Shown: piece by piece, positions 19,310 through 52,306 of the stretch
Numbering within the stretch: the stretch's first letter is position 1
How the letters are laid out: every line of letters starts with the position of its first letter
NCBI GenBank assembly: GCA_001783145.1
Contig: MFQT01000016.1
Span: 3,796-67,795 of the forward strand
Length of the DNA stretch: 64,000 nucleotides
Reading direction: 5' to 3'
Origin: Candidatus Magasanikbacteria bacterium RIFOXYB2_FULL_38_10
GTDB lineage: Bacteria > Patescibacteriota > Patescibacteriia > Magasanikbacterales > UBA10003
The notes under the pieces: generated by a model
Told to the model about the DNA's origin: nothing
The model's database searches: none
What the model saw: only the letters and a program-made list of their open reading frames with translations
Made by a program: the position numbers and the translations under genes

Positions 19310-20992
19310 CTATTCCACCACTCTAAAAACTTCTTCAACCGAAGTGATGCCTTGTAAAGCTTTTAGCAAACCGTCTTGAGCCATAGTGATCATACCATTC
19401 TTAATAGCCACCTCTTCCATAGCATAACCGGAAACATCATTTTTTAAAATTAAAGCCTCAATTTCTTTGTTCATTTCTAAAAGTTCATAGATACCAATAC
19501 GTCCTTTATAACCCAAGCCATTACATGCTTCGCAACCAACAGGACCATAAAATTTTAAATTATCTAAAATGATTTGATGCTTGGTTAAAAATTCCGCTGG
19601 TAATTTTTGTAAAGTTTCTCTAGCTTTCTTTAAAGACATTTCCTCAAGAGAAATTTCTTTTTTACAAACATTGCACAAACGACGCACCAAGCGTTGACCC
19701 ATGACCGCATTTAAAGCTGGCGCCAGCAAAAAGGGTTTAACGCCCATAGATAAAAACCTGGGCACAGCTCCAGCGGCATTATTGGTATGGATGGTAGAAA
19801 GCATAAAATGCCCGGTCAAAGCCGCTTGAATAGCCGTTTCCGCTGTTTCTAAATCTCTAATTTCACCTACCATGACAATATCCGGATCTTGACGCAACAA
19901 GGAACGCAAACCTTTGACAAAAGTATATTCACGGCTGGCATCAATTTGGCTTTGATTAACCCCCGGCATTTTATATTCCACAGGATCTTCTAAAGTAATA
20001 ATTTTTACTCCCGGTTTATTTAATTGCTGTAAAATGGCATACAAAGTGGTAGTTTTACCGGATCCAGTGGGGCCGGTTGTAATTACCATACCCGAAGGTC
20101 TTTCTATTTGTTTTTTTAAAGCCCCCAGAAGGGTGTCTTGTAAACCCAACTCTTCAAAACTTAAAGCTGACACTGATTTTAAAATGCGCATTACCACTGA
20201 TTCCCCAAAAACCGTAGGCAAAGTAGAAACACGAACATCAACTTTTGCGTTTTTCAAAACAATGGTATAACGGCCGTCTTGCGGGGTATCAATAATATTA
20301 ATTTTCAATCCCGCCAAAAGTTTGATCCTGGAAATTATCCGTGACCATAATTCTTTAGAAATTAACCCTGCTTCTTGCAAAATTCCGTCCAAACGATAGC
20401 GTACCACCGCACCCTCTTCTTCAGATTCCACGTGAACATCCGAAGCCTCCAATTTTAAAGCAGCCGCCACCAACAGAGTAACCGAGTCTGTCACATTATC
20501 AAGATTGGCCAATTGTTTTTTAAACTCTATTAAAGAATTGATGCTGGAGCCTAAACGTTCCAAATCTTGTTCCGTGATACTAACATCTTTGGTGATTGGT
20601 TTAATAACAGGCAGAGCGGAATAAAATTTAACCGCTTCTTTAAAGCTGTTTTCCGAAATTAAATAAATAACGCCGCGGCTGTGATGCCTTTCTTCCAGAA
20701 CATGCAAAAGTTCTTTGGCTTCTTCTTTTTGTGGATTGATGGCGCCCAACCTAATTTCCGATCCGGTAAACAAAAAACACACGACCTTCTTTTTTTGCGC
20801 TTCAATCTCGGGAATTAAACTAATGGCTTCCGCTGTAATTGGAAAACGAAAAAGATTAATATAAGGCGCGCCCAAAGACCCCGCCAATTTTTCCGCCTCG
20901 GTCTCTTTTTCTTTAATGACAATATCATGCATCTTGCCGGCCAATTTGGCGGCCGATTCATCAGAGGCTAATTTTAAAGACACTTTAGGCAT
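19310..20992 (-). CDS. pilB: type IV pilus / type II secretion assembly ATPase (PilB/GspE family)
   Basis: Walker A GPTGSGKTTT, Asp/His boxes and a C-terminal tetracysteine (CNVCKK...CEAC) typical of PilB/GspE. Confidence 0.85.
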   Translation of the reverse strand: MPKVSLKLASDESAAKLAGKMHDIVIKEKETEAEKLAGSLGAPYINLFRFPITAEAISLIPEIEAQKKKVVCFLFTGSEIRLGAINPQKEEAKELLHVLEERHHSRGVIYLISENSFKEAVKFYSALPVIKPITKDVSITEQDLERLGSSINSLIEFKKQLANLDNVTDSVTLLVAAALKLEASDVHVESEEEGAVVRYRLDGILQEAGLISKELWSRIISRIKLLAGLKINIIDTPQDGRYTIVLKNAKVDVRVSTLPTVFGESVVMRILKSVSALSFEELGLQDTLLGALKKQIERPSGMVITTGPTGSGKTTTLYAILQQLNKPGVKIITLEDPVEYKMPGVNQSQIDASREYTFVKGLRSLLRQDPDIVMVGEIRDLETAETAIQAALTGHFMLSTIHTNNAAGAVPRFLSMGVKPFLLAPALNAVMGQRLVRRLCNVCKKEISLEEMSLKKARETLQKLPAEFLTKHQIILDNLKFYGPVGCEACNGLGYKGRIGIYELLEMNKEIEALILKNDVSGYAMEEVAIKNGMITMAQDGLLKALQGITSVEEVFRVVE

Positions 20993-35511: not shown

Positions 35512-37050
35512 ATGAAAATTTGGCAAAAGCAAAATTTACTTCTGCTTCTGTTTTTTTTAATCGTGGCTGTCTATTTTAGCCTGCTTCAAGGATCGCCTCA
35601 TTTTGTCGATCCCGATTCTTTTTATCATGCCAAAATGGGGTTTTTAATGCAAAAAGATATAATCATTAAAAACTTCCCTTGGATTAAATTTGCGCCTTTT
35701 ACTCAAAATTTTACCGACCATCAATTTATTTATCATTTATTACTAATACCTTTCACTTTCTTTTTTTCACCCCTTTTAGGCACTAAAATAGCCGCCATCA
35801 TTTTGGCTGTAACGGCTTTTGCAATTTTTTATTTTTTCTTAAAAAAATGGCAAATAAAATATCCTCTTTTTTATATTCTCATTCTTTTAACATCCATTTC
35901 TTTTGTTTTTAGAATGAATTTGGCCAAAACTAGCTCCCTTTCTTTAATTATTCTTCTTTTAACGCTTAATTTTATCTGGCAACGCCGCTTTATCCCCTTA
36001 TTTTTAGCTTCTTTTGTTTATGTTTGGTGCTACGGCGGCTGGGGAATGCTTTTAGGGCTTATTTTTAGTCTAACACTGGGTGATTTAATTATTAATAAAA
36101 AAATCATTGGGAGTAACATTTTAGCAATTTTACTGGGACTGCTGGCCGGGATTATTATTAATCCTTATTTCCCCCATAATATTCAATTTTACTGGCAACA
36201 AGTGGTGCAAATAGGCCTGATTAATTATAAAGACCAAATAGCCGTAGGTATGGAATGGTATCCCCCGGATATTTTAAATTTTCTGGGCAGTGAAATTTTT
36301 ATATTCTTACTGGGGATATTGGCTCTTTTTTTATTTTTTATAAAAATTAAGACAAAAAAAAATAATAATTTAGAGGATGAGAGATCTCTCCACAAAATTT
36401 TTTCCAAAATCATTGGCTTATTTATTTTTGCCGGTCTGCTTTTTGTCCTAACTTTAAAATCCCAACGCTTTATAGAATATTTCGTACCTTTTAGTGTTTT
36501 AGCTTGCGCCTTTTTAATAAATTTTTCTTTGCCCAAAAATTTTTCCTTAAAAGAATCACTATATTTTTGGCTTACTAAAAATAAATATCTTAATAAAGCT
36601 TTTTTAGTTTATTTTTTAGCCATTATGGTTGGTTTTTTTTCTTTAAACAGCTTAAAATTAAACCAACAATTTACCTCGCGTTATAATTGGAACTATTTAA
36701 AAAATTCTTCCGCTTGGCTTAAAGAAAATACACCACCAAAAACAACTGTTTTTCACACCAGCTGGGCAGACTGGCCAATGCTCTTTTATCATAATTCACA
36801 AAATACCTATTTAAGCGGCCTAGATCCTACCTTTTTTTATTTAAAAGATAAAAATTTGTATAAAGAATGGATACAAATAGGCAATGGTCAAATACAAGAT
36901 AAATTAGATGAAAAAATTAAAAAAAATTTTAGCGCTAATTGGATTTTAATCAAGAACAATGAGATAAAGCTGTTAAAAGCAATCAAATCAAATGACAAAT
37001 TTTCTTTAGTTTACCGGGATGATGAAGCTCAAATTTTTTTTCTACGTTAA
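35512..37050 (+). CDS. large polytopic membrane protein, GT-C-type (PMT/ArnT-like) glycosyltransferase candidate
   Basis: About 12 TM segments with an acidic first-loop motif (HFVDPDSFYHAKMG) resembling the DxD/DE loop of GT39/GT83 enzymes, plus a C-terminal soluble domain. Confidence 0.4.
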   Translation: MKIWQKQNLLLLLFFLIVAVYFSLLQGSPHFVDPDSFYHAKMGFLMQKDIIIKNFPWIKFAPFTQNFTDHQFIYHLLLIPFTFFFSPLLGTKIAAIILAVTAFAIFYFFLKKWQIKYPLFYILILLTSISFVFRMNLAKTSSLSLIILLLTLNFIWQRRFIPLFLASFVYVWCYGGWGMLLGLIFSLTLGDLIINKKIIGSNILAILLGLLAGIIINPYFPHNIQFYWQQVVQIGLINYKDQIAVGMEWYPPDILNFLGSEIFIFLLGILALFLFFIKIKTKKNNNLEDERSLHKIFSKIIGLFIFAGLLFVLTLKSQRFIEYFVPFSVLACAFLINFSLPKNFSLKESLYFWLTKNKYLNKAFLVYFLAIMVGFFSLNSLKLNQQFTSRYNWNYLKNSSAWLKENTPPKTTVFHTSWADWPMLFYHNSQNTYLSGLDPTFFYLKDKNLYKEWIQIGNGQIQDKLDEKIKKNFSANWILIKNNEIKLLKAIKSNDKFSLVYRDDEAQIFFLR

Positions 37051-37077
37051 AATAAAAATGGTATAAAATTAAAAATT

Positions 37078-38667
37078 ATGAAACGTCAAGAATGGATTTT
37101 TATCTCTATTATTTCCGGACTACTAATTATTATCACCGCCGTCCCCTATCTTTACGGTTGGCTGATGACCCCTCCCAATTATTCTTTTTTGGGCAACGGA
37201 TTCTTTAACTCCCACGACAATCATGTTTATTATGCTTATATAGAACAGGTCAAGGCTGGTCATTTTTTATTAAAAGACGTCTTCACATCGGAAACACAAA
37301 AACCATTTTTAAATATATTCTGGTTACTGGCCGGATTGCTGGCCAGCTTTTTTCATTTAGGACCAATTTTTACTCTTCATTTTTTAAGAATAATTTTAAT
37401 TCCGCTTTTTGTTATAATAGCTTACAAATTTGCCTTGTTAGCTTATGAAAATGATGCCAAAAAAGAATTAAAAATAAGGTTAGCAATTTTGTTTTTATTT
37501 TTTACCGCCGGATTTGGCGGTTTAATTTGTTTATTTAACAAAAATTTTTCCTCACCTTTGGAAGTTTGGTGGCCGGAAGCCTATGCTTTTTTAAGCAGTT
37601 ATTTTTCACCTCATTTTATAGCTTCCTGGACCTTATTATTACTCTCTTTTTATTTCTTAATTAAAGGGTTGAAAGAAAACAGTTATAAAAAAATTTGTTA
37701 TGCGGGTCTCTTTGGGCTTTTTTTAATTCAATTTCACACTTTTTATTTAGCTTTAATCGCCCCCGTAAGTTTAATTTTTCTTATTTACTCTAAAAATTTA
37801 ATCAAGGATGCGGTTAAAAAAATAATTTTGTATAATTTATTTTTTGTTCCGGCCGTAGCCTATTATTTTTTTATGATTGCCAGTGATGAAGTGATGGGGC
37901 AAAGATTATTTAATAATTTAATGCTCACTCCTAATTCACCGACTAAAATTATTTTAGCCTTTGGCTTAATCATCCCCTTAGCCATAATAGCTTTTTTAAA
38001 TTTGCTTAAAGAAAAAAATAATTTAGCAAAAATTTTCTTAAATATTTGGTTTATCAGTGTGCCATTTTTAATACTCTCTAAATTACCTTTCGAAAGAAGA
38101 TTGATTGAAGGGTGGCAATTTCCAGCTATAATCTTAGCCGTGGATTCAATTTTTCTCATTAAAAATAAATTTGCGCCCTTTAAAAAAATATCTGCTTTAA
38201 TTTTTAACAGACTAACTTTTTTCTTAATATTTATTTTTCCACTTATTTTTATTTATTTTATTTTATTTAATGTCTATTATAATCCCGGGGAAAGGCAATT
38301 TTATCTACCTAATGAAGTAAAAGATTCGCTGGTCTGGTTAAAAAATAAGGGAACTTACGATGATATTGTTTTATCTTCCACTTACACCGGACTGGCGGCC
38401 GCTTTTATGGCGGATAAAACTGTTTTTATTGGGCATGGTTTTGAGACTCTTGATTCAAGAAAAAAAATGAAACAGATGGCATGGTTTTTTCAAACCAACA
38501 CAGAAGACGATTTAAAAAAAGAAATGCTCAAAAATTGGAATATTAAGTACTTAATTTTTGGTCCTTATGAAAAGGCGCTCAATTCAATCTATGAACCGGA
38601 TCAAAAAAAATATTTAACAAAAATTTACAGCCAAAAAGGAGTAGAAATTTACCAAACTGCCAATTGA
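37078..38667 (+). CDS. second large polytopic membrane protein, GT-C-like
   Basis: Architecture matches the upstream gene (multi-TM core plus C-terminal globular domain), so likely a paralogous glycosyltransferase. Confidence 0.4.
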   Translation: MKRQEWIFISIISGLLIIITAVPYLYGWLMTPPNYSFLGNGFFNSHDNHVYYAYIEQVKAGHFLLKDVFTSETQKPFLNIFWLLAGLLASFFHLGPIFTLHFLRIILIPLFVIIAYKFALLAYENDAKKELKIRLAILFLFFTAGFGGLICLFNKNFSSPLEVWWPEAYAFLSSYFSPHFIASWTLLLLSFYFLIKGLKENSYKKICYAGLFGLFLIQFHTFYLALIAPVSLIFLIYSKNLIKDAVKKIILYNLFFVPAVAYYFFMIASDEVMGQRLFNNLMLTPNSPTKIILAFGLIIPLAIIAFLNLLKEKNNLAKIFLNIWFISVPFLILSKLPFERRLIEGWQFPAIILAVDSIFLIKNKFAPFKKISALIFNRLTFFLIFIFPLIFIYFILFNVYYNPGERQFYLPNEVKDSLVWLKNKGTYDDIVLSSTYTGLAAAFMADKTVFIGHGFETLDSRKKMKQMAWFFQTNTEDDLKKEMLKNWNIKYLIFGPYEKALNSIYEPDQKKYLTKIYSQKGVEIYQTAN

Positions 38668-38674
38668 TTTAATT

Positions 38675-39382
38675 ATGTCTTTAATCAACATTACAATTCC
38701 TGTTTTTAACGAAGAAATTATTTTAGAATCCAGTCTTAAAAAATTATCTGACTTTTGCGCTAAAAGTTTAAAAGACGACTGGTTTATGGTGGTGGTTAAT
38801 AACAATTCAACGGATGCCACAGCTTTAATTTGTAAAAGAATATCTCAAAACAATACCCGCATTAAATGCCTTAATCTGCCTCAAAAAGGCAAGGGCTTGG
38901 CCATTCAGGAAGGTTGGCAAAGTTTTTCCGCTGACTATTACATTTTTATGGATGCTGATTTAGCCACAGATTTGGAGGCCTTGCCAAAAATGATAGAGGA
39001 ATTAAAAAAAGGAGCCCCTGCAATAATTGGTTCACGCCGCTTGCCCCTTTCCCAAGTAGAAAGATCCGTATTACGCGATCTTGTTTCTTTAACTTATTTA
39101 AAAATAGCTAATTTAATGCTTAACCTTAAGTTAAGCGATTTAGCCTGCGGTTTTAAGGGAGTAAACAACGAAATTAAAGAAAAAATACTGCCCAAGATAA
39201 AAGACAGGGCTTGGTTTTGGGACACAGAAATGCTTTTTTGGGCCAAACGAGCGGGATTTAAAATAAAAGAAATCCCGGTCATTTGGACCGAGACTCCTGA
39301 TCAAAAAAGAAAAAGCAAAGTGGGAATTTTAAAGGTGGGTTTTAAAAATTTTCTGTCACTGTTTAAAATCCGCTATTTATAA
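38675..39382 (+). CDS. GT2 polyprenol-phosphate glycosyltransferase (Dpm1/GtrB-like)
   Basis: ITIPVFNEE...VVVNNNSTDAT...FMDADL is the classic GT-A fold DxD of dolichol/polyprenol-phosphate mannosyl/glucosyltransferases. Confidence 0.75.
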   Translation: MSLINITIPVFNEEIILESSLKKLSDFCAKSLKDDWFMVVVNNNSTDATALICKRISQNNTRIKCLNLPQKGKGLAIQEGWQSFSADYYIFMDADLATDLEALPKMIEELKKGAPAIIGSRRLPLSQVERSVLRDLVSLTYLKIANLMLNLKLSDLACGFKGVNNEIKEKILPKIKDRAWFWDTEMLFWAKRAGFKIKEIPVIWTETPDQKRKSKVGILKVGFKNFLSLFKIRYL

Positions 39383-39843
39383 AATGATTGGGTTTCCGCA
39401 GGAAGAATATCAGACGCTGCTGTTTCCGGAGCATAGGTTGTACTGCGTAAAAGAAAAAGAGTAATTAATAAAACAATACCATAAGCGGCGAGGACAATAA
39501 CAAGTCCGATGACGCCGTTTTTTAAATATTTCTGAGCCTCTTCTACTTTTTTAGACTCTCCGGCAGAGGTCATCCATAAAAAACCGGCGTAAACAATCAA
39601 GCCCAAGAAAATTATACCCACGATTCCCAAAAAAACTTTAATCAGATTAGCGACTGTTTGTCGCGGGTCTTGGGTGCTCAAACCAGCCACATTGGTTGCC
39701 GCGCTAAATTGTTGATTAATAATATTGATTACTTTATCGCTCCCTCCTGATTCGTCGGCTGAAACATTTTTTACAAAAAAAGTATTTATAAAAAAGCTTA
39801 AGGCTAAAAAAAGAGGAAAAAATAAAAAAAATATTTTTCTCAT
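39373..39843 (-). CDS. TrbC/VirB2-like pilin-family small membrane protein (array member 9)
   Basis: Signal peptide followed by a variable region, then the conserved hairpin VFLGIVGIIFLGLIVYAGFLWMTSAGESKKVEEAQKYLKNGVIGLVIVLAAYGIV. Confidence 0.6.
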   Translation of the reverse strand: MRKIFFLFFPLFLALSFFINTFFVKNVSADESGGSDKVINIINQQFSAATNVAGLSTQDPRQTVANLIKVFLGIVGIIFLGLIVYAGFLWMTSAGESKKVEEAQKYLKNGVIGLVIVLAAYGIVLLITLFLLRSTTYAPETAASDILPAETQSFYK

Positions 39844-39853
39844 AATTTTGTAA

Positions 39854-40270: not shown

Positions 40271-40278
40271 AAAATTAT

Positions 40279-40701
40279 TCAGGAGTTGTCCCCCCCCCCC
40301 CCAAATTCAATACCGCTGGCACCGGTTAAATAAAAAACTACAAAATAAGTAATAGCGTAAGCGGCTACCACAATTATTAAACCAACGATAGATCTTTTAA
40401 TTATATCCTGTGCTTCATCCACTTCTTTAGATTCACCCCTGGCTAACATCCACTTAAAACCGCCGTAAATCATTAAAATCAAAAATATCACCCCCAACAA
40501 AACTAAAGCCGCCTCAATTATACCCCCCACAACAGCTTCTAATTGTTTAGGTTCTCCGCCGTAAGCTGGTGCCAGTTTTCCAAGTTCTGTTCCGGCATTT
40601 TTTATAGTAGGGTTATCTTGCGCCAAAGCTTGCAACTGACTAAAAATAAAAAAACCGGAAATAATAAGGAAAAAACTATAAAACAAAACTTTTTTAAACA
40701 T
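40279..40701 (-). CDS. TrbC/VirB2-like pilin-family protein (array member 7) with 3' poly-G tract
   Basis: Conserved block LLGVIFLILMIYGGFKWMLARGESKEVDEAQDIIKRSIVGLIIVVAAYAI. The C-terminal ...IEFGGGGDNS is encoded by a G13 homopolymer. Confidence 0.6.
   Translation of the reverse strand: MFKKVLFYSFFLIISGFFIFSQLQALAQDNPTIKNAGTELGKLAPAYGGEPKQLEAVVGGIIEAALVLLGVIFLILMIYGGFKWMLARGESKEVDEAQDIIKRSIVGLIIVVAAYAITYFVVFYLTGASGIEFGGGGDNS
40290..40302 (-). repeat. 13-nt homopolymeric G tract (C13 on the plus strand) inside the 3' end of array member 7
   Basis: Counted directly as gtc + cccccccccc + cc. It encodes the GGGG near the stop codon. The next pilin paralog starts 9 nt downstream. Confidence 0.9.
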
Positions 40702-40705
40702 AAAA

Positions 40706-41098: not shown

Positions 41099-41102
41099 AC
41101 TT

Positions 41103-41447
41103 TTATTGAGCCACAGCAAAGACATATTTAGTAATTACGTATGAGGCGGCCACAATAATAATACCAATAATAGAATTGATAATGATATCCTTAGCTTCTC
41201 CGGTTTGTTTGGTGTCGCCTCTGGCAGTCATCCACAAAAAACCGCCGTAAATCATTAAAGCAAAAAAGATCACGCCTATTAAAGACAAGCCGGCTCCCAA
41301 AATTTGCCCTACCCTGGTCTGAATAGTGCCCTCCATAGGAACACCGGCTCCCTTAGCCGTTTCTTGCAGGCCATATTGTGCCAAACAATAAGGAGCCAAA
41401 GCAAAAGAGGAAAAAATTACCGCTAACCAAGAAAAAATTTTTTTCAT
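41103..41447 (-). CDS. TrbC/VirB2-like pilin-family protein (array member 5)
   Basis: Conserved block LIGVIFFALMIYGGFLWMTARGDTKQTGEAKDIIINSIIGIIIVAASYVI. Confidence 0.6.
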   Translation of the reverse strand: MKKIFSWLAVIFSSFALAPYCLAQYGLQETAKGAGVPMEGTIQTRVGQILGAGLSLIGVIFFALMIYGGFLWMTARGDTKQTGEAKDIIINSIIGIIIVAASYVITKYVFAVAQ

Positions 41448-42117: not shown

Positions 42118-42158
42118 CTCCCTTCTTAAAAATTTGATTTTGATTATTTATCTATAAG

Positions 42159-42674: not shown

Positions 42675-42677
42675 ATT

Positions 42678-43223
42678 TTATGAGGATAAGGCGGTAAAAA
42701 CAAAATTCAAAATAAAATAACTGCTAAAAATAACAATCAAACCTATGCCGGCCCAAAGCATTGTTTGGGTGGCTTTTTTAATTTGTTCTGATTTCCCCGC
42801 AGAAGTAAGCCAAAGAAAACCGGCGTAAACAAAAAGAATAAAGGCAATAGTACCCAAAAAACCCATCACGGCCATAATAATATTGCTAATAAGGCCCTGT
42901 ACAGTTAAGCCATACAAGGGATTGACAATGGTTCCAATATTACTTGGGGAATAGGCGGCCGCGGTTTTACAATTACCCAAAGCCTCAATAAATTGAGTTT
43001 CACAATTCCTTCTGTTTTCTTCTGTCTGTGCTGGATAGCCACCTTCAATAGAGGCTGCCTGAGAATAAACTTTATCTAAACAAGCCGTATTAGCTTCTTG
43101 AGCTTTTTCGGAACAATCTTTTTCTGCGGATTTGGCCAAAGAAACAAAACTTAAATTAAAAATTAAGGCCAAAAGAAACAAAACTAAATTGACTTTAATT
43201 CCCTTTACCAAAAATCTCCGCAT
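42678..43223 (-). CDS. TrbC/VirB2-like pilin-family protein (array member 2) with Cys-containing N-terminal ectodomain
   Basis: Signal peptide, a 4-Cys ectodomain, then the conserved block FLGTIAFILFVYAGFLWLTSAGKSEQIKKATQTMLWAGIGLIVIFSSYFIL. Confidence 0.55.
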   Translation of the reverse strand: MRRFLVKGIKVNLVLFLLALIFNLSFVSLAKSAEKDCSEKAQEANTACLDKVYSQAASIEGGYPAQTEENRRNCETQFIEALGNCKTAAAYSPSNIGTIVNPLYGLTVQGLISNIIMAVMGFLGTIAFILFVYAGFLWLTSAGKSEQIKKATQTMLWAGIGLIVIFSSYFILNFVFTALSS

Positions 43224-43230
43224 AATTTTA

Positions 43231-43752
43231 CTATTTTATTTCCACGTTAATACTGCCGGTAGGTAAACTAACCGAGGTGCTTCCTCCGGCTTTAATTACG
43301 GTGTCTAAAATAAAACTTAACAAAAGCTGGGCAGAAAAAATTATAACTAAACCAATAGCCGCCGCCACCAAGGTTTCCTTACCTTTTTTAACTCTTTCCC
43401 CACCGGCCGCGGTTAAAATTACAAACCCGCCATAAATAAAAAATAATAAAGCCACACCGCCCACTACTTCAAAAGCAACATTAACTACATTAACCAAAAG
43501 CTGTAAAAAAACATTAATATTGCGGCAACCGCAGGTTTTTTCTTTAGAAGTTCCCTCAAAATAAACGCAATCGGGAAAGAACCAAGAAGGGTTGCCGGAT
43601 GAGTACAGGGGAATTCCCTTATCGTCTTTTAATTGTTTTAAATCACAAACAATCGGCTCGGTTCCTGTTTGTGCCAAAGCCTTAAAAGGTAAAGCTAAAA
43701 TAATTACCCCTAAAAAAGCAACCAGTATTCCCTTATATATTTTGCCCTCCAT
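43231..43752 (-). CDS. TrbC/VirB2-like pilin-family protein (array member 1) with Cys-containing ectodomain
   Basis: Signal peptide, a Cys-containing domain (CDLK...CVYFEG...CGC), then the block GGVALLFFIYGGFVILTAAGGERVKKGKETLVAAAIGLVIIFSAQLLL. Confidence 0.55.
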   Translation of the reverse strand: MEGKIYKGILVAFLGVIILALPFKALAQTGTEPIVCDLKQLKDDKGIPLYSSGNPSWFFPDCVYFEGTSKEKTCGCRNINVFLQLLVNVVNVAFEVVGGVALLFFIYGGFVILTAAGGERVKKGKETLVAAAIGLVIIFSAQLLLSFILDTVIKAGGSTSVSLPTGSINVEIK

Positions 43753-45166: not shown

Positions 45167-46048
45167 TTATTTTATCTTTTTAATATATTCTTTAATTCCT
45201 TCGGCCAGTTCCGGACGACGCAAAGCAAAATCTAAATTAGCCTTTAAATACTCCAACTTATTGCCTGTATCATAATAGTAACTATTTTTTATCTCACAAG
45301 CATAAACGGGAAATTCTTTTTGAATCAATTTCTCTATGGCATCGGCGAGCCACAATTCTCCTCCCTTGCCCGGCTTTAAATCTTGTAAAATAGGAAAAAT
45401 TTCTCCGGGCAAAATATAAGCGCCGTGGGTGGCCAAATTAGATGGCGCTTCCCCTGCTTTGGGCTTCTCCACTATCTTTTTTATTTTAAAAATATTGTCT
45501 TCTACCGGTTCCACATCGGCAATACCATAACGGCTTAAATTTTCTTCCTCCACCCGCACCGCAGAAATTATGGCTCCGCCTTTTTTTTCATAAACATCTA
45601 CCATCTGTTTTAAACGCGGCGGATTGGCATAAATAAATTCATCACCCCACATTACGGCAAAATTCTCATCATCATCTATTAAATGGCGACAACAATAAAC
45701 GGGGGTGGCGTTGCCATAGGGCCCTTTTTGGCGAACATAAACAAAATTAGCCATTTCGGCAATATGACGCACTTCTGCTAACTCTTTTAGTTTACCGGCC
45801 TCCTCCAAACGTTTCTCCAATTCAAAAGAATGATCAAAATAATCTTCTATGGCCCTTTTATGCCAACCCGTGACAATAATAATATCTTTAATGCCGGCGG
45901 CCACGGCTTCTTCTACCACATATTGAATCACCGGTTTATCCACAATTGGCATCATTTCTTTAGGCATGGATTTGGTAGCGGGTAAAAATCTGGTGCCAAA
46001 ACCGGCGGCAGGAATAATAGCTTTAGTTATTTTTCTATGATTTTTCAT
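45167..46048 (-). CDS. galU: UTP--glucose-1-phosphate uridylyltransferase
   Basis: KAIIPAAGFGTRFLPATKSMPKEMMPIVDKPVIQYVVEEA is the canonical GalU N-terminus. Confidence 0.85.
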   Translation of the reverse strand: MKNHRKITKAIIPAAGFGTRFLPATKSMPKEMMPIVDKPVIQYVVEEAVAAGIKDIIIVTGWHKRAIEDYFDHSFELEKRLEEAGKLKELAEVRHIAEMANFVYVRQKGPYGNATPVYCCRHLIDDDENFAVMWGDEFIYANPPRLKQMVDVYEKKGGAIISAVRVEEENLSRYGIADVEPVEDNIFKIKKIVEKPKAGEAPSNLATHGAYILPGEIFPILQDLKPGKGGELWLADAIEKLIQKEFPVYACEIKNSYYYDTGNKLEYLKANLDFALRRPELAEGIKEYIKKIK

Positions 46049-46129
46049 ATTTTACTTGTAAGACTGAATATTTTGTTCAAAAACTTGTGTCTAAATTGTA
46101 TCATTTTAAAGCAATTGACACAACTTAAC

Positions 46130-47515
46130 CTATTTAATTTCTCTCCAAGAAATTAAATGATATTCGGTTCCCACAAAAAAGGACGGGGGAGGAGAATAAG
46201 TTAAATTAGCATCGTAATTGGTAAAAGTATTGCGATAACCTGAAACCACAGAACCTCCTTGCGTCACCCAACTCCAAGTCCAAATACCTTTAGAAATAAC
46301 ACTGCCGTAAATAGTTAAATCATTCAGAATATTACCGGAATAATAAAATCTTTGGGCACTGCCGTTTTGTGCCACTACTGCGGCATCAATTTCTAAATCA
46401 TTTGGAGAATAACGCGGAATTAAAATATCTTTTTGAGCAATTAAACCTAAGGAATCAGAGCCGTCCTTAGCCGTATAAACAATATTATTAGGAATAACAA
46501 TAGTAGTGTAAGTGTTAGGATTAACGGGAAACTTGCCTGAACCCACAGTCAAATGACCTTTAACTGTCCCCTCCACCCAAACCTTATCCTCAATAAAAAT
46601 TAAACCGTTAGCAGGATTAGCAAAGTTACCTTGTAAAGTTTCATTTTTAACATCATAGGATTCATAATGTTTCACACCATTCACATCTTTGCCATAACCT
46701 GGAGAAGGAACTGGTTTTAAAGATGTCACTTTATAAAGATCAAAGGTACTGTTGCTCTTAAATTTTATATGATAACCATAGGCTCCGGAAGAAGAACGAT
46801 AAAAGCCGTCGCTCTGCGCTCCGGTCCTGACATTGGATAAATCTATAGTAATGCCATCAAAATCAAAAGCCGGTATGGGAAATTGCCAAAAATTAGTTGG
46901 GCCTCCGGCGCCCCAAATACCCGGCTTGGTGGTATTATTGCATCCCGAACCAAAAATGGGTTTACAAACATAAGTTGGTTTAGCCGAGGTAATCGGCGCA
47001 TCAGCCGTACCATCAAACCTAATACCACCGTTGGCATGTAATTTTCCGTGAATAATTTCATTATCACCAATCCAAACATCCGAATTGGTTAAAAAAGCAA
47101 AATCAGCCAAAGAAGGAAGACCCATTCTGATTTGAACTTTTCTTTTAGTATTAGGTTGATCCAACGTATAACCGGTGGAAACAATAGTGACAACAGAAGA
47201 GCCAGTGGTCGGCGGGGTTATTTCCAAACTAAATCTGCCAATAATATTGCCATCTTTATCCAGATAATCATGAACATAGGGTCCGGGGCCGCCTGTGCCG
47301 TCCTGATAATCAGTACCACTGTGCGCCAAATGCCAGCGGTAATATTCAGCACCAGCTTCGGCAATTTGAAAGGCCTGCTCATTATTTTGATTAAAATGAG
47401 CCGCTCTGTTTTCCATCACTCCGAAAACAGCCACACCATTAAAAATGGCAGTGACGGCCATGGCTCCAAAAACCAGCGCAATCAGCAAAATATTTCCCTT
47501 TTTTTTACTCGGCAT
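46130..47515 (-). CDS. PilX-N-domain-like pilus assembly / minor pilin-associated protein
   Basis: N-terminal TM (ILLIALVFGAMAVTAIF), then QAFQIAEAGAEYY resembling the PilX_N AEAG motif, then a large Gly/Thr/Asn-rich beta domain. Confidence 0.5.
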   Translation of the reverse strand: MPSKKKGNILLIALVFGAMAVTAIFNGVAVFGVMENRAAHFNQNNEQAFQIAEAGAEYYRWHLAHSGTDYQDGTGGPGPYVHDYLDKDGNIIGRFSLEITPPTTGSSVVTIVSTGYTLDQPNTKRKVQIRMGLPSLADFAFLTNSDVWIGDNEIIHGKLHANGGIRFDGTADAPITSAKPTYVCKPIFGSGCNNTTKPGIWGAGGPTNFWQFPIPAFDFDGITIDLSNVRTGAQSDGFYRSSSGAYGYHIKFKSNSTFDLYKVTSLKPVPSPGYGKDVNGVKHYESYDVKNETLQGNFANPANGLIFIEDKVWVEGTVKGHLTVGSGKFPVNPNTYTTIVIPNNIVYTAKDGSDSLGLIAQKDILIPRYSPNDLEIDAAVVAQNGSAQRFYYSGNILNDLTIYGSVISKGIWTWSWVTQGGSVVSGYRNTFTNYDANLTYSPPPSFFVGTEYHLISWREIK

Positions 47516-48116
47516 ATTTTAAATTTCTTATCTCGGCCTTGGCATTAATAGTAATGGGCAAAGGAGAAAGTCCGGGCTTTTGATCTATCACCAGACTCAT
47601 TTGTACCATACGCACGTCTAAAACATTAATTGGAAAAGATAAAGCGGAACCAAGACCGGTATAATTTTTATTAAAATAAGAAAAAGGTTGCTGGTCGGCT
47701 GTTAAGTCATGAACCACACCGGTGATTACTTCTGTTGAATCATTATAAGATAAGGGATTGCCCGAGGGTTTGATGACTCCTTTTTTAAAAAGCGACCCCG
47801 AAACAAAATATCTTACTTTTTCCGCGTAGCTATCAGAATCAATATCACTATAGAAAGCAAAAGAAGTGGGAGTGGCTTCGGCCACCATATAAGAACCAAT
47901 GCTGGAGGCTGAGGCGTTACGTAATTCTTTAACAAAATCCGCGGCTACGCGTCTGGCTTCCTTTTGAGCCGTCAGTTGATTATAAATAATATTATTAGAA
48001 GAAAAAATGGTGCTAATGAATAAAGCGGCCACGGTAATAAACAAAATAAAAATGCCTAAAGAAACCAAAACTTCTATTAAAGTAAAACCGGAAAATTTTT
48101 TAAAAATTAAAAGCAT
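47505..48116 (-). CDS. type IV prepilin-like protein (minor pilin / pseudopilin)
   Basis: N-terminal prepilin cleavage/methylation motif FSGFTLIEVLVSLGIFILF. Confidence 0.65.
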   Translation of the reverse strand: MLLIFKKFSGFTLIEVLVSLGIFILFITVAALFISTIFSSNNIIYNQLTAQKEARRVAADFVKELRNASASSIGSYMVAEATPTSFAFYSDIDSDSYAEKVRYFVSGSLFKKGVIKPSGNPLSYNDSTEVITGVVHDLTADQQPFSYFNKNYTGLGSALSFPINVLDVRMVQMSLVIDQKPGLSPLPITINAKAEIRNLKYAE

Positions 48117-48122
48117 AAAAAA

Positions 48123-49913
48123 TTACGGGCTCATTAATACTTCCACCTGAGAGCGGCCACTGACATCGGCCGTGGTGATTACGTTTTGATAACCAGGGAG
48201 AGTTACCGTTAAATTGTAAGTTCCCGAATCTAAACCGTAAAAAAAAGATTGGCCCGGGGGCGTGCAACCCGAGGTATAACTAATGGACACTTCTGATAAT
48301 TGCGGAGAAAAATTTTGATTAGCGGTTGATAAACTTATTTTATAACGCAAAAATCTGTCACCATTATGCACTGCGGAAATATTGCTATCACTGACAGTAT
48401 AATAAGTTTCTCCGGTTCCGTCCGGACCTAAAAAATTCCAAGAACTTGGCGCCGAGGAACTGGCCGTAGCAATTTGAAATTTAATAGAATCAACTCCGGT
48501 TTGAGCTGGCTGACTTAAGGGTTCCCAAATGATATTGGTAAAATTGCTGGCTGTTCCAAAGTCAATGGTGGAGGAGATTAATTCGCCGCTCCATTGATAT
48601 TTATTGCCGATTTTTTTTAAATACAAATCACCGGCGGGGCTATTTGTTTCCACTCCTCCATCTTGTAAAAAATAGCCTGTTTCGTCTATAAAGTTTTCTT
48701 GTCCCGAACCGCCCGACCAATCTGTTTGTCTTAAATAACCGCGTCCGGTAACCAAGGAATCGCTAAATGTCCCTTTATCAATAGAAACCGCGGCGTTAGT
48801 TAAAGGAAGTTTGGTGGCGCTATCTTTAATTGTTAAAAGCAAAGAGTTGGTTGTGTGTGAATGCAAGATTACAGATAAGTTTTGAGTAGCATCGGGAACT
48901 AAAAAAACCGGCAAGGTGGGAATGGTTCCGGCCACATCGTAACTTCCGTTAGACAAATTAAAACTATAAGTGTCCCATTCCAAATTATCTAAAACTTTTG
49001 TTCCCTCACTATTGGTGGAAACGGTTTGATCATAACGGTAAACATTAGGGTTTTCACCAATCACCTTGGAGCCACTGACGGAGAAAGAAATGTTGGAAAG
49101 GCCACTGCATTGCGGATTGATAGCAGAAAAATTGATGGTAGAAATTTTATCAATGGAAAAAGAAAGATTAGTGACGGTTTGTGAAGCCACGGTAGCCAAG
49201 GGTTTGACTGGATTAGGATTATTGACAGTTTCGGGAATAGTGTAATCGGTTGTGTAGCCATTTTTAGAAACAACAACAGAATACCCCTCGGTAGAAGTGG
49301 CTATGTCAATTATTTTTAATTCCCCATTAGTGTTAGTGGTATCGGTAAGATCAACATTGGGATTAACTAAAGTATTGGTAATATGAACTGTGGCCCCAGG
49401 CACCAGCAGGCCGGAAGCATCAAAAACTTTAATAAAAAGAGAACCGTTTTGGGAATCGGCTTCCGTATTTTTAGGAGAGATTCGAGCGGTTAAAATTGTA
49501 GGCCTTACCTGTCCGCCGGTGCAAGACGAACAAAAAACACGGACCTCGGCCAATTTAAAGTCGGCCGGAGAGGTATCATTGGGAGAACCTCCGGCCAAAC
49601 CGTCAAAAGGATCATCTATATTACGGATGGTTGTTTGTACTAAAAAAGACGCTCCATTACGCAAGGTGGTAGTGGTTTGCGGCCACACCCCATTAGGCAC
49701 CCCACCAATGGTTCCGGTACTTTCATAGGGCAAATTACGTAGAGTTTCTATAACTTCATTAGCTACTTGTGTTTCCAAAACTTGCACGCGAGAAATGTAG
49801 GTGACTTTAAAAACATAAATAATCACCGCATAAACTCCGGATAGAATAACGGCAAAAATGGCAATAGAAACTAAAATTTCAATTAAAGTAAATCCTTTTT
49901 TAATCCTGGTCAT
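48123..49913 (-). CDS. large type IV prepilin-like protein with carboxypeptidase-regulatory-like beta-sandwich domains
   Basis: N-terminal KKGFTLIEILVSIAIFAVIL prepilin motif. Internal GATVHITN...TNGELKIIDIATSTEGYSVVVSKNGY resembles a CarbopepD_reg fold. Rich in T/S/N. Confidence 0.65.
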   Translation of the reverse strand: MTRIKKGFTLIEILVSIAIFAVILSGVYAVIIYVFKVTYISRVQVLETQVANEVIETLRNLPYESTGTIGGVPNGVWPQTTTTLRNGASFLVQTTIRNIDDPFDGLAGGSPNDTSPADFKLAEVRVFCSSCTGGQVRPTILTARISPKNTEADSQNGSLFIKVFDASGLLVPGATVHITNTLVNPNVDLTDTTNTNGELKIIDIATSTEGYSVVVSKNGYTTDYTIPETVNNPNPVKPLATVASQTVTNLSFSIDKISTINFSAINPQCSGLSNISFSVSGSKVIGENPNVYRYDQTVSTNSEGTKVLDNLEWDTYSFNLSNGSYDVAGTIPTLPVFLVPDATQNLSVILHSHTTNSLLLTIKDSATKLPLTNAAVSIDKGTFSDSLVTGRGYLRQTDWSGGSGQENFIDETGYFLQDGGVETNSPAGDLYLKKIGNKYQWSGELISSTIDFGTASNFTNIIWEPLSQPAQTGVDSIKFQIATASSSAPSSWNFLGPDGTGETYYTVSDSNISAVHNGDRFLRYKISLSTANQNFSPQLSEVSISYTSGCTPPGQSFFYGLDSGTYNLTVTLPGYQNVITTADVSGRSQVEVLMSP

Positions 49914-50011
49914 AAAATGATTATAACATTTTTTTTAAAGCCTGTCGCTAAAATTTATTAGTCCAATTTAAACATTAAGCAGTTTCCACGGACACGTCAC
50001 CCAAATAAAAC

Positions 50012-50036
50012 ACCGCCCAGCATTACACCGGGCGGT
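50012..50036. terminator. bidirectional hairpin terminator downstream of the cNMP-MBL gene
   Basis: ACCGCCC / GGGCGGT stem, T-rich on both sides. Confidence 0.55.
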
Positions 50037-52223: not shown

Positions 52224-52306
52224 TTTTTCTCCTGTTTTAGTTGTCAAAGTACCTTTTAAACTTAGCAAGTTTAAGGGTACATGTCAATCATTTTTAACTT
52301 AAACAA

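What the first reader, a model, noticed from the sequence alone, without database searches (positions are those of the whole stretch)
46130..49913. T4P-like prepilin/PilX genes co-operonic with galU, an orphan sugar-binding lipoprotein and the pilin array
One minus-strand unit runs 49913 to 39373 with gaps of 10 nt or less. It holds a large prepilin (596 aa, with CarbopepD-like beta-sandwich), a prepilin (203 aa), a PilX-N-like protein, GalU, an SBP lipoprotein without transporter partners, then the nine pilin-family genes. The transcript converges on a GT-C/GT-C/Dpm1-like glycosylation trio. UDP-glucose synthesis (GalU) and a sugar-binding lipoprotein embedded in a pilus operon, next to a polyprenol-phosphate-sugar synthase, suggests a glycosylated surface filament or a filament-linked nutrient/host-glycan capture apparatus. 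The cognate PilB ATPase lies separately at 19310..20992. No pilC, pilT or pilM-Q genes are in the window.
Basis: partly seen in the sequence, partly recalled or inferred. Interest (0 to 1): 0.55.

Follow-up and report, generated by a model that had tools for sequence, protein, structure and literature searches.

The report
Pilus-tip operon beside T4SS-pilin array
In this ultra-small groundwater bacterium (Candidatus Magasanikbacteria), the three genes that build the tip of a type IV pilus, one shaped like a known DNA-binding tip protein, lie in a conserved block next to a separately promoted set of sugar-activation, sugar-binding and nine conjugation-type pilin genes; this links two different surface-filament systems but is not the single glycosylated-pilus operon first proposed.

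Summary
The genes are real and at the stated coordinates, but two points need correcting.

- **The nine "pilin" genes** are VirB2/TrbC-like type IV secretion (T4SS) pilins (PF18895). They are not type IV pilus (T4P) pilins.
- **The unit is not uniformly tight.** It has gaps of 81, 41 and 271 nt. The 81-nt gap before galU carries an extended -10 promoter, which recurs before galU in 32 of 43 related loci.

The 596-, 203- and 461-aa proteins form a T4P minor-pilin trio, complete and in the same order in 65 of 66 assessable related loci. In other Patescibacteria the trio sits inside pilB-pilC-trio-pilMNO operons. The 596- and 203-aa proteins have canonical G|FTLIE prepilin signals. The 461-aa protein lacks E+5, and its high-confidence model matches Thermus ComZ, a GspK-like tip pilin with a beta-solenoid that binds DNA.

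In 33 of 56 assessable species the trio is followed by GalU, a sugar-binding lipoprotein and 4-12 position-conserved VirB2-like genes, and often a distal glycosyltransferase. The genes flanking this block differ between species.

VirB2 arrays in Patescibacteria are already published. The ComZ-like tip pilin and the conserved block were not found in the literature searched.

Verdict: a new variant of known kinds, of moderate interest. Function is inferred, not shown.

The parts
50012..50036 (-). Intrinsic terminator of the upstream cNMP-binding gene; marks the 5' boundary of the block
   Evidence: 11-bp stem with 7 GC pairs followed by a T-run
49920..49948 (-). Promoter-like site of the minor-pilin operon: GCGACA-17-TGtTATAAT. 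The -10 box ends 6 nt before the ATG, which implies a leaderless or near-leaderless mRNA.
   Evidence: An extended -10 motif lies within 80 nt upstream of the 596-aa family gene in 35 of 71 related loci.
48123..49913 (-). 596-aa modular type IV prepilin. It has the leader KKG|FTLIE, an N-terminal helix, a pilin head, then about five beta-sandwich or jelly-roll domains (CarboxypepD_reg 162-225, PEGA-like C-terminus).
   Evidence: Pfam and NCBIfam. AlphaFold model with pLDDT 86.6. Foldseek matches Gram-positive pilin CnaB/Ig domains such as TIE, SpaA, BcpA and PitA. The family has 2294 or more members, with G7, F8 and E12 nearly invariant.
47505..48116 (-). 203-aa type IV prepilin (minor pilin) with leader FSG|FTLIE
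   Evidence: N_methyl hit, and weak ComGF/ComGE/GspI/GspJ N-terminal hits. G-1 and E+5 are invariant in 31 orthologues. The profile matches only the N-terminal helices of solved type IV pilins.
46130..47515 (-). 461-aa ComZ/GspK-like tip (cap) pilin. It has a non-canonical leader (KKKG|NILLIA, no E+5), a 60-residue N-terminal helix, a pilin-like sheet and a large beta-solenoid.
   Evidence: Model pLDDT 90.2. The top three Foldseek PDB hits are chains of 6QVI ComZ (E 1e-12, probability 1.0), followed by ice-binding-protein beta-helices including 4NU2. These are the same relatives reported for ComZ itself (PMC6561018). No sequence-level hit to PDB or Pfam.
46095..46123 (-). Internal promoter-like site upstream of galU: TTGTGT-17-TGaTACAAT
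   Evidence: Read from the sequence. Extended -10 motif present in 32 of 43 related loci, against 0 of 81 before the 461-aa-family gene and 3.2 of 43 in shuffles.
45167..46048 (-). GalU, UTP-glucose-1-phosphate uridylyltransferase
   Evidence: TIGR01099 at 325.2 bits (cutoff 326.8); PF00483 at 128 bits
43755..45158 (-). Sugar-type solute-binding lipoprotein (SBP_bac_1, lipobox LGC) with no adjacent permease or ATPase
   Evidence: Pfam at 91 bits. The nearest solved relatives are sugar or oligosaccharide SBPs (best E 6.5e-14). 39 orthologues share invariant Trp and aromatic residues.
43231..43752 (-). VirB2/TrbC-like T4SS pilin paralogue 1 (173 aa, 4 Cys in the N-terminal ectodomain)
   Evidence: PF18895 at 39.6 bits. 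Positional orthologue at array position 1 (position 2 where a pil2-like gene precedes the SBP) in the related loci compared.
42678..43223 (-). VirB2-like paralogue 2 (181 aa, 4 Cys)
   Evidence: PF18895 at 36 bits
42159..42674 (-). VirB2-like paralogue 3 (171 aa, Cys-rich C-terminal tail)
   Evidence: PF18895 at 32.1 bits
41719..42117 (-). VirB2-like paralogue 4 (132 aa); the most conserved across species, typically 50-70% identity
   Evidence: Precomputed PF18895
41448..41718 (-). 271-nt non-coding gap inside the array that folds into an unusually stable structure, with a possible promoter (TTGAGC-18-CATATT) near its 3' end
   Evidence: MFE -90.3 kcal/mol, z = -6.8. No ORF of note. No Rfam hit. 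No other copy in the window or related loci.
41103..41447 (-). VirB2-like paralogue 5 (114 aa)
   Evidence: PF18895 at 36.6 bits
40706..41125 (-). VirB2-like paralogue 6 (139 aa)
   Evidence: Precomputed PF18895; topology
40279..40701 (-). VirB2-like paralogue 7 (140 aa)
   Evidence: PF18895 at 33.2 bits
39854..40270 (-). VirB2-like paralogue 8 (138 aa)
   Evidence: Precomputed PF18895; topology
39373..39843 (-). VirB2-like paralogue 9 (156 aa); its 3' end overlaps the convergent GT2 gene by 10 nt
   Evidence: PF18895 at 41.2 bits
39268..39298 (-). Terminator-like hairpin about 75 nt past the last pilin gene, lying inside the convergent GT2 gene
   Evidence: 13-bp stem with 6 GC pairs followed by a T-run
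38675..39382 (+). GT2 glycosyltransferase, polyprenol-phosphate-sugar-synthase-like. It is convergent with the array and a possible consumer of UDP-glucose.
   Evidence: PF00535 at 82.9 bits. NCBIfam hits to PgfS, AglJ, ArnC and PpgS are all below cutoff.
35512..38667 (+). Two polytopic membrane proteins (512 and 529 aa) upstream of the GT2. They are GT-C candidates only.
   Evidence: No family or PDB hit. 9-10 hydrophobic segments. A homologue of the first follows the array in L009.
19310..20992 (-). PilB-type T4P extension ATPase, 26 kb from the trio
   Evidence: T2SSE at 398.6 bits plus MshEN

Best explanation
The region is two adjacent modules that form one conserved block in the Magasanikbacteria lineage of Patescibacteria.

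**Module 1 (49913-46130)** is a single operon with its own, possibly leaderless, promoter. It encodes the priming and tip complex of a type IV pilus.
- Two subunits are processed by prepilin peptidase. The 596-aa one carries a long stalk of Ig-like and jelly-roll domains. The 203-aa one is a small GspI/J- or ComGF-like subunit.
- The third is a 461-aa ComZ/GspK-like cap without E+5, whose beta-solenoid would sit at the pilus tip.
- By analogy with GspIJK and ComZ-PilA2, the three would nucleate assembly on the PilB/PilC machine. PilB is at 19310-20992; the other parts lie outside the window.
- They would then present the solenoid and stalk as the first point of contact with DNA and/or a host-cell surface.

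**Module 2 (46048-39373)** starts from its own extended -10 promoter.
- It encodes GalU (UDP-glucose supply), a lipid-anchored sugar-binding protein, and nine ancient, position-conserved VirB2/TrbC-like subunits.
- These subunits presumably serve the relaxase-less, monoderm-type T4SS encoded elsewhere.
- A UDP-sugar-using membrane glycosyltransferase usually lies at the distal end.

**What is shown:** gene identities, signal motifs, fold matches, block conservation and the internal promoter motif.

**What is inferred:** tip location, DNA or host binding, use of UDP-glucose for an envelope or filament glycoconjugate, and any functional coupling between the two modules. The likely coupling is co-deployment at the cell-contact or DNA-uptake site.
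For: **Trio as a T4P unit**
- It is complete and in the same order in 65 of 66 related loci.
- It is embedded in PilB-PilC-trio-PilM-PilN-PilO in L053 and followed by PilM-PilN in L014.
- G-1 and E+5 are conserved in the 596- and 203-aa families.
- No promoter motif lies before the 203-aa gene (4 of 79 loci) or the 461-aa gene (0 of 81), while 35 of 71 loci have one before the 596-aa gene.

**ComZ-like cap**
- Model pLDDT is 90.2. The top Foldseek hit is 6QVI ComZ at E 1e-12, followed by ice-binding-protein solenoids.
- This mirrors the published description of ComZ.

**Module 2**
- PF18895 in all nine genes, with VirB2-like topology.
- An extended -10 motif lies before galU in 32 of 43 loci.
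- In 15 of 33 loci a VirB2-like gene sits between galU and the SBP, which ties both genes to the array.
- The paralogues are collinear across species.
- A distal glycosyltransferase is present in 17 loci.

**Block conservation**
- The block is present in 33 of 56 loci, while the upstream neighbour family is shared by at most 8 of 31.
- Related genomes carrying the block (the L089 and L040 genomes) have VirB4 elsewhere.
Against: - No experiment or transcript data exist. Promoters are consensus matches only, and no strong terminator separates the modules, so read-through co-transcription is possible.
- The ComZ match is structural only. TM-score is about 0.3 for the whole chain, and there is no sequence-level hit. 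The DNA-binding residues cannot be mapped.
- In other lineages the trio (T4P operon), the VirB2 array (next to VirB4/VirB6 in Saccharibacteria) and GalU lie apart, so the coupling is lineage-specific and may not be functional.
- The SBP's ligand and partners are unknown.
- The type of glycosyltransferase at the distal end varies, and it is absent in L021 and L023.
- PilC, PilD, PilM-O, the major pilin and the T4SS core of this genome were not seen, because they lie outside the window.
Confidence: 0.6

Rival explanations
1. One long operon encodes a single, glycosylated T4P-like filament. The prepilins, the PilX-like protein and the nine pilins are all subunits of it, GalU and the GT trio supply the glycan, and the SBP captures sugars.
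For: Most intergenic gaps are 10 nt or less, and no strong internal terminator was found. GalU and a glycosyltransferase bracket the array in many species.
Against: - The nine genes are VirB2/TrbC-like with Sec-type signals, not class III prepilins. A T4P machine cannot polymerise them as far as is known.
- A conserved promoter lies before galU.
- Gaps of 81 and 271 nt exist.
- The GT-C/GT-C/GT2 trio is not conserved next to the array.
Confidence: 0.07
2. Conserved neighbours without shared function. The minor-pilin operon was translocated next to a pre-existing GalU-SBP-VirB2 region in an ancestor of Magasanikbacteria, and the order has persisted by inertia. GalU and the SBP are housekeeping genes.
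For: - The modules have separate promoters.
- In other Patescibacteria the trio sits in the T4P operon, and the array sits beside VirB4/VirB6 with GalU elsewhere.
- The array-to-rpsO adjacency is shared with Saccharibacteria, which suggests old synteny.
Against: - The block survives in 33 species whose 461-aa proteins are only 43-57% identical to the window's.
- Over the same range the genes on its upstream side have been reshuffled, with at most 8 of 31 sharing a neighbour.
- A VirB2-like gene lies between galU and the SBP in 15 loci.
Confidence: 0.22
3. DNA-import super-module. The ComZ-like T4P tip captures extracellular DNA. The VirB2-like subunits belong to a relaxase-less T4SS that works inward, as in Helicobacter ComB or archaeal Ced, to feed a nucleotide-auxotrophic cell.
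For: - The 461-aa protein has a ComZ-like fold, and ComZ binds DNA and is needed for transformation.
- Patescibacterial T4SS clusters mostly lack relaxases.
- In class ABY1 these clusters co-localise with comF, recG and radA.
Against: - There is no sequence similarity to ComZ, so DNA-binding residues are unverified.
- Beta-solenoids more often bind or cut glycans.
- GalU, the SBP and the glycosyltransferases have no obvious role in DNA uptake.
- No comEC, comF or virB4 is present in the window.
Confidence: 0.11

Closest known systems
ComZ-PilA2 competence pilus tip of Thermus thermophilus (PDB 6QVI; PMC6561018)
   Same: - The 461-aa protein has the same two-part build: an N-terminal hydrophobic helix, a GspK-like pilin domain and a large ice-binding-protein-like beta-solenoid.
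- It is not recognisable as a canonical prepilin.
- It is encoded directly after smaller canonical minor pilins.
   Different: - No detectable sequence similarity.
- It is shorter (461 aa, against crystallised ComZ chains of about 500-520 residues).
- The organism is presumably monoderm, so presumably lacks a secretin.
- The partner set includes a 596-aa multi-domain pilin that is absent in Thermus.
- DNA binding is untested.
GspI-GspJ-GspK pseudopilus tip, and the core minor pilins (PilV/W/X, ComGD-GG) of T4P and competence pili
   Same: Three co-transcribed subunits: two with G-1/E+5 and one cap without E+5. There are weak NCBIfam N-terminal hits to GspI/J, PilV and ComGE/GF. In relatives the trio sits between pilC and pilM.
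   Different: The globular domains are unrelated at sequence level. One subunit carries about 450 residues of adhesin-type beta-sandwich domains. The cap carries a solenoid rather than the alpha-helical insert of GspK.
PilX1 and PilX2 tip minor pilins of Saccharibacteria TM7x (PMC11623550)
   Same: These are large patescibacterial minor pilins without a predicted PilD signal. They carry an accessory domain, are proposed to sit at the tip, and are implicated in host binding.
   Different: Their accessory domains are a beta-jelly-roll and a beta-propeller, not a beta-solenoid. Their loci are not next to a VirB2 array.
VirB2-like pilin arrays of Patescibacteria (PMC12102498; essential series SEML1_0014-0019 in Southlakia epibionticum, PMC10633639)
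   Same: Tandem PF18895 genes numbering 2-11 per array, with strongly diverged paralogues, on the chromosome.
   Different: - Here the array is not beside virB4 or virB6.
- It is preceded by GalU, an SBP and the T4P tip operon.
- The paralogues are positionally orthologous across species, which fits fixed, distinct subunits better than the published suggestion of host-range variation.
Three-component extracytoplasmic glycosylation (GtrB/CsbB-type GT2 plus a GT-C transferase) and UgtP/MGDG-synthase glycolipid synthesis in monoderms
   Same: GalU would supply UDP-glucose. The window has a polyprenol-phosphate-sugar-synthase-like GT2 next to two polytopic proteins. Relatives have a GT28 MGDG-synthase-like gene inside the array.
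   Different: No flippase was identified, the GT-C identity is unverified, and the acceptor is unknown. The enzyme type differs between species.

Membership tests
Type IV pilin (class III signal peptide), 596-aa and 203-aa proteins | Short basic leader ending in Gly(-1), a hydrophobic residue at +1, Glu at +5, and a hydrophobic N-terminal helix of about 20 or more residues | tested here: met
   The leaders are KKG|FTLIE and FSG|FTLIE. PF07963 scores 34.1 and 22.6 bits against a cutoff of 21.2. G and E are invariant or nearly invariant in the family alignments. The models show helices at residues 10-59.
Type IV pilin (class III signal peptide), 596-aa and 203-aa proteins | Cleavage and N-methylation by a PilD prepilin peptidase, and incorporation into a pilus | not testable with these tools
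   No PilD is present in the window; this needs the whole genome or an experiment.
T4P minor-pilin (priming/tip) set | Encoded with the T4P assembly genes | tested here: met
   L053 has PilB-PilC-trio-PilM-PilN-PilO. L014 has trio-PilM-PilN. PilB lies upstream of the trio in about 10 loci. In the window itself PilB is 26 kb away.
ComZ-like / GspK-like tip pilin, 461-aa protein | Pilin-like domain with an inserted ice-binding-protein-type beta-solenoid, an N-terminal helix lacking E+5, and an adjacent partner pilin | tested here: met
   Foldseek finds 6QVI at E 1e-12 with probability 1.0, then 4NU2 and other ice-binding proteins. The leader is KKKG|NILLIA. The gene overlaps the 203-aa gene by 11 nt. 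The exact insertion point of the solenoid was not checked, because model coordinates could not be inspected.
ComZ-like / GspK-like tip pilin, 461-aa protein | Sequence homology to ComZ | tested here: not met
   A profile of 51 family members finds no ComZ chain in the PDB at E up to 1.
ComZ-like / GspK-like tip pilin, 461-aa protein | Binds dsDNA and is required for transformation | not testable with these tools
   Needs EMSA or genetics.
PilX_N (PF14341) | Pfam hit above threshold | tested here: inconclusive
   The window protein has no hit at E up to 0.1. A few orthologues carry a precomputed PF14341 hit or the NCBI name "PilX N-terminal domain-containing".
VirB2/TrbC T4SS pilin (PF18895/PF04956), nine array genes | Family HMM above the gathering score; Sec signal plus two hydrophobic helices joined by a short charged loop | tested here: met
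   Six genes scanned here score 32-41 bits against a cutoff of 26.6. All nine carry a precomputed PF18895 hit. Topology; the alignment is.
VirB2/TrbC T4SS pilin (PF18895/PF04956), nine array genes | Encoded with T4SS core genes (VirB4, VirB6, VirB3/PrgI) | tested here: not met
   None is present in the 64-kb window. Related genomes have VirB4 elsewhere.
GalU (TIGR01099) | Equivalog HMM at or above the trusted cutoff | tested here: inconclusive
   325.2 bits against a cutoff of 326.8, full length; PF00483 at 128 bits. Very probably GalU.
ABC-transporter solute-binding protein (SBP_bac_1) | SBP fold family hit and a lipoprotein signal | tested here: met
   91.2 bits against a cutoff of 26. The lipobox is ...SGLGC. 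PDB relatives are sugar SBPs.
ABC-transporter solute-binding protein (SBP_bac_1) | Adjacent permease and ATPase genes | tested here: not met
   None is adjacent in the window (the only ABC_tran hit is UvrA), and no recurrent transporter-like ORF family lies within or just after the block in 36 related loci.
Single operon 49913-39373 | No internal promoters or terminators; short gaps throughout | tested here: not met
   Gaps of 81, 41 and 271 nt exist. A conserved extended -10 lies before galU (32 of 43 loci), and the same motif is found before the SBP in 20 of 41 loci. No strong internal terminator was found, so read-through is not excluded.
GT-C glycosyltransferases (35512-37050 and 37078-38667) | Family HMM or structural match | tested here: inconclusive
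   No Pfam, NCBIfam or PDB sequence hit. The polytopic topology is compatible.

The most novel reading that the evidence does not exclude
In the Magasanikbacteria lineage, a ComZ-like type IV pilus tip and a fixed set of nine distinct VirB2-like subunits of a relaxase-less T4SS act together as one contact organelle. This organelle imports DNA or nucleotides (ComB/Ced-like) from the environment or a host cell. GalU and the distal glycosyltransferase supply a glucolipid or glycan that is built into or around the VirB2-type filament. The block would then be the genetic signature of a hybrid T4P-T4SS uptake apparatus.
Probability: 0.1. Interest if true: 0.85.

Novelty: new variant of a known kind. 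Interest (0 to 1): 0.5.

Why it matters
Patescibacteria make up a large share of bacterial diversity. They cannot make nucleotides, lipids or many sugars, and they live by contact with other cells. How they attach and take up material is largely unknown.

- **A candidate receptor.** The family of ComZ-like, solenoid-bearing pilus-tip proteins is widespread: relatives in 562 or more species-representative genomes, and 393 sequence clusters at E up to 1e-30. This gives a concrete candidate for the DNA or host receptor of their type IV pili.
- **A conserved link between two systems.** In one major lineage the tip operon is tied to UDP-glucose synthesis, an orphan sugar-binding lipoprotein and an ordered set of nine T4SS-type pilins. 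This points to coordination between two filament systems that are usually studied apart.
- **Fixed subunits, not variants.** The positional conservation of the paralogues suggests the published "VirB2 arrays" are fixed multi-subunit sets rather than variation cassettes.

All of this can be tested with recombinant proteins, multimer modelling and existing groundwater metatranscriptomes.

Tried and rejected
- **Sequence link to ComZ.** A profile of the 461-aa family against PDB sequences found nothing relevant, so the ComZ relation rests on fold only.
- **PilX_N and other families for the 461-aa protein.** No hit in Pfam or NCBIfam.
- **GT-C identity of the two polytopic proteins.** No Pfam, NCBIfam or PDB hit, so this is left unverified.
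- **The array as T4P pilins.** Rejected: only two class III motifs exist in the window.
- **The 271-nt structured gap.** No Rfam family, no repeat copies in the window or in 83 related loci (L007-L089), and no pilin remnant in translation. It remains unexplained.
- **The GT trio as a conserved partner of the block.** Rejected: a homologue of the window's first polytopic protein follows the array only in L009 and related GT2 genes lie at the array's end in L008, L017 and L041, whereas nine loci end in rpsO.
- **Upstream neighbours as possible major pilins.** They turned out to be a coiled-coil protein, SSB and trigger factor.
- **Literature.** No paper in the held library links ComZ to Patescibacteria. 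The main paper on patescibacterial T4SS does not mention GalU, solute-binding proteins or prepilins.

Full report
**Source.** The window comes from Candidatus Magasanikbacteria bacterium GW2011_GWC2_4x, a groundwater member of the Patescibacteria (CPR). The 461-aa protein is identical to UT86_C0004G0079, and the same stretch occurs on JGI, Logan and ENA contigs.

**Observation.**
- The 596-aa protein has the prepilin N-methylation motif, a CarboxypepD_reg domain and a weak PEGA-like C-terminus.
- The 203-aa protein has the N_methyl motif.
- The 461-aa protein has no Pfam or NCBIfam hit.
- 45167-46048 is GalU (TIGR01099 at 325 bits, cutoff 326.8).
- 43755-45158 is an SBP_bac_1 lipoprotein with lipobox LGC.
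- PilB at 19310-20992 is confirmed.
- No pilC, pilM/N/O or second ATPase was found among the window's larger ORFs.

*Correction 1: the gaps.* The unit is not uniformly tight. There are gaps of 81 nt (46049-46129), 41 nt (42118-42158) and 271 nt (41448-41718).

*Correction 2: the nine genes.* The nine small genes at 39373-43752 are PF18895 "T4SS_pilin", that is TrbC/VirB2-like.
- Each has a Sec-type signal segment followed by two hydrophobic helices.
- Only two class III prepilin motifs (G|FTLIE) exist in all six frames of the window, and they belong to the 596- and 203-aa proteins.
- So two different filament systems are juxtaposed.

**The trio is a T4P minor-pilin set.**
- *Family size.* Both large proteins belong to big, well-conserved patescibacterial families: more than 3800 and more than 2200 hits, with the top 120 at 47% identity or more over the full length. 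A profile of the 461-aa family finds 393 clusters at E up to 1e-30 among 1.84 billion representatives. A scan of one genome per GTDB species found relatives in at least 562 species.
- *Gene order.* I annotated the 80 retrieved loci with HMMs built from the window's proteins. The order 596-like, 203-like, 461-like held in 65 of 66 loci with enough upstream sequence.
- *T4P context.* In L053 the trio lies inside PilB-PilC-trio-PilM-PilN-PilO. In L014 it is followed by PilM-PilN. About ten more loci have PilB just upstream.
- *Signal motifs.* G-1 and E+5 are invariant or nearly so in the 596- and 203-aa families. The 461-aa family keeps the Gly but has no E+5, as is established for cap subunits such as GspK.

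**Structures.**
- *The 461-aa protein.* The AlphaFold model of the 461-aa protein (51-sequence alignment, pLDDT 90.2) has a 60-residue N-terminal helix, a small pilin-like sheet and a long beta-solenoid.
- *Its PDB matches.* Against the PDB, its three best matches are the three chains of 6QVI, the competence-associated pilin ComZ of Thermus thermophilus (E 1e-12, probability 1.0). They are followed by ice-binding-protein beta-helices, including FfIBP 4NU2.
- *Agreement with the literature.* The ComZ authors report this same pair of relationships for ComZ: a GspK-like pilin domain plus an ice-binding-protein-like solenoid. They also report that ComZ binds the neighbouring pilin PilA2 and dsDNA, and that it can only fit at the pilus tip (PMC6561018).
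- *Limits of the match.* The whole-chain TM-score is low (about 0.3), and a family profile finds no ComZ sequence. The relation is one of fold and architecture, not demonstrable homology.
- *The 596-aa protein.* Its model (pLDDT 86.6) is a pilin helix and head followed by a string of beta-sandwich domains. These domains match the CnaB/Ig domains of Gram-positive sortase pilins and adhesins.

**The downstream module and the block.**
- *Frequency.* Of 56 species-representative loci with at least 6 kb downstream of the 461-aa homologue, 33 continue with GalU, the SBP and 4-12 (mostly 9-12) PF18895 genes. The other 23 have none of these.
- *Where it occurs.* Array-bearing loci are mostly labelled Magasanikbacteria. 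Array-less loci include Doudnabacteria, Paceibacter, Veblenbacteria and UBA lineages.
- *GalU and the SBP belong to the array.* In 15 of the 33 loci a pil2-like PF18895 gene sits between galU and the SBP gene.
- *Flanks.* The block is more stable than its surroundings. The most common upstream neighbour family is shared by only 8 of 31 loci, and the neighbours are housekeeping genes such as SSB, trigger factor and FtsK.
- *Positional orthology.* The paralogues keep their positions across species. Position 1 matches pil1 (shifted to position 2 where a pil2-like gene precedes the SBP) and the next two positions match pil2/pil3. Position 4 matches pil4, typically at 50-70% identity. The rest follow in roughly the window's order.
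- This pattern fits a fixed set of distinct subunits better than a rapidly varying cassette.

**One operon or several?**
- An 11-bp terminator stem at 50036-50012 and a TGtTATAAT promoter at 49948-49920 delimit the start. The -10 box ends 6 nt before the ATG, which implies a leaderless-type mRNA.
- The 81-nt gap before galU contains TTGTGT-17-TGaTACAAT at 46123-46095.
- Across related loci I counted an extended -10 motif within 80 nt upstream of each gene class:

| Upstream of | Loci with motif |
|---|---|
| galU | 32 of 43 |
| 461-aa family gene | 0 of 81 |
| 203-aa family gene | 4 of 79 |
| 596-aa family gene | 35 of 71 |
| SBP gene | 20 of 41 |
| array (pil) genes | 39 of 339 |
| shuffled galU upstream regions (mean) | 3.2 of 43 |

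- The trio is therefore one operon, and galU very likely starts a new unit.
- I found no strong terminator between the two, so read-through remains possible.

**Sugar chemistry.**
- The window's convergent GT2 resembles polyprenol-phosphate-sugar synthases (PgfS, AglJ, ArnC, PpgS), with all hits below cutoff.
- The two polytopic proteins before it have no detectable family, so "GT-C" is unverified.
- This trio is not a conserved neighbour. However, a membrane-associated glycosyltransferase recurs at the distal end of the array:
  - a GT28 MGDG-synthase-like gene on the opposite strand, before or just after the last pilin gene, in 14 loci;
  - a GT2 in 3 loci.
- L021 and L023 reach rpsO without any glycosyltransferase.
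- A UDP-glucose source at one end and a UDP-sugar user at the other is consistent with an envelope or filament glycoconjugate. That is inference only.

**Comparison with what is published.**
- VirB2-like arrays in Patescibacteria are known: 441 arrays of 2-11 genes in 383 assemblies (PMC12102498).
- A series of six is essential in Southlakia epibionticum. There it lies beside VirB4, PrgI and VirB6, with GalU elsewhere (PMC10633639).
- In that genome a further PF18895 gene is followed by rpsO, as in several of my loci. The array-rpsO link is therefore old, and the upstream partner differs by lineage.
- Table S1 of PMC12102498 scores the genomes of L089 and L040 as VirB4-positive. VirB4 is nevertheless not within 10 kb of the block in L089.
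- The same paper notes that ABY1 T4SS loci often include comF, recG and radA. This makes a DNA-uptake role for both modules worth testing.
- I found no paper linking ComZ to Patescibacteria. The T4SS paper does not mention GalU, solute-binding proteins or prepilins.
- The tip pilins described in Saccharibacteria carry jelly-roll or propeller domains instead.

**Verdict.**
- The single glycosylated-filament operon is not supported.
- The best reading is a T4P tip operon with a ComZ-like cap, fused in one lineage into a conserved block with a separately promoted GalU-SBP-VirB2-like module.
- Functional coupling between the modules is plausible but unproven. Persistence of gene order without shared function remains a serious rival.

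Noticed in passing
window 41448-41718 (minus strand): A 271-nt non-coding gap inside the VirB2-like array folds into a very stable structure (-90.3 kcal/mol, z = -6.8). A long GGGACGGG...CCCGTCCC stem encloses nested hairpins. It has no Rfam match and no other copy in the window or in the related loci compared (L007-L089).
   Followed up: partly
window 49913-49948; also L043, L060, L064, L070 and L075 upstream of galU: The -10 box of the promoter-like site ends only 6-9 nt before the start codon, with no room for a Shine-Dalgarno sequence. This suggests leaderless mRNAs for these surface-structure genes.
   Followed up: no
window 50058-52268 (minus strand): A 736-aa protein has a metallo-beta-lactamase-fold region (with a faint precomputed Anti-Pycsar Apyc1 hit) fused to two cNMP-binding domains. 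Its GC content is about 0.46, against about 0.38 for the surroundings. It may be a horizontally acquired cyclic-nucleotide phosphodiesterase or sensor.
   Followed up: no
L007, L015, L016, L028, L032-L035, L061, L077, L080, L082, L088: A GT28 MGDG-synthase-like glycosyltransferase of about 370 aa, usually on the opposite strand, lies just before or just after the last VirB2-like gene. Where the locus extends far enough, rpsO follows the array.
   Followed up: partly
L013 1253-11356: Two complete minor-pilin trios lie in tandem. The first large pilin is 1322 aa and carries 12 LVIVD repeats in addition to CarboxypepD_reg.
   Followed up: partly
L065 10708-11082; L043 10317-10787, and similar ORFs in L080, L083, L089, L060, L064: Small ORFs of the "23S rRNA intervening sequence protein" and PD-(D/E)XK (PDDEXK_3) families are inserted in the region between the 461-aa gene and the end of the array in several species.
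   Followed up: no
window 17979-19226 and 21002-21961 (minus strand): PilB is flanked by two proteins with no family hit. One is 415 aa with a single transmembrane segment, and the other is a 319-aa polytopic membrane protein. They could be lineage-specific T4P platform or alignment parts.
   Followed up: no
window 60005-63061 (minus strand): A 1018-aa protein with four lamin-tail domains, a PKD domain and an OB-fold / DUF5689-like C-terminus. It is probably a surface protein and may bind nucleic acid.
   Followed up: no
L009 11431-12867: In the closest diverged relative examined for this (69% identity), a 478-aa protein with a weak SLT (lytic transglycosylase) hit is inserted between the ComZ-like gene and galU.
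   Followed up: no
L011 (69% identity locus): This is the only locus of 66 that lacks a 596-aa homologue upstream of the 203- and 461-aa genes, even though 10 kb of upstream sequence is available.
   Followed up: partly
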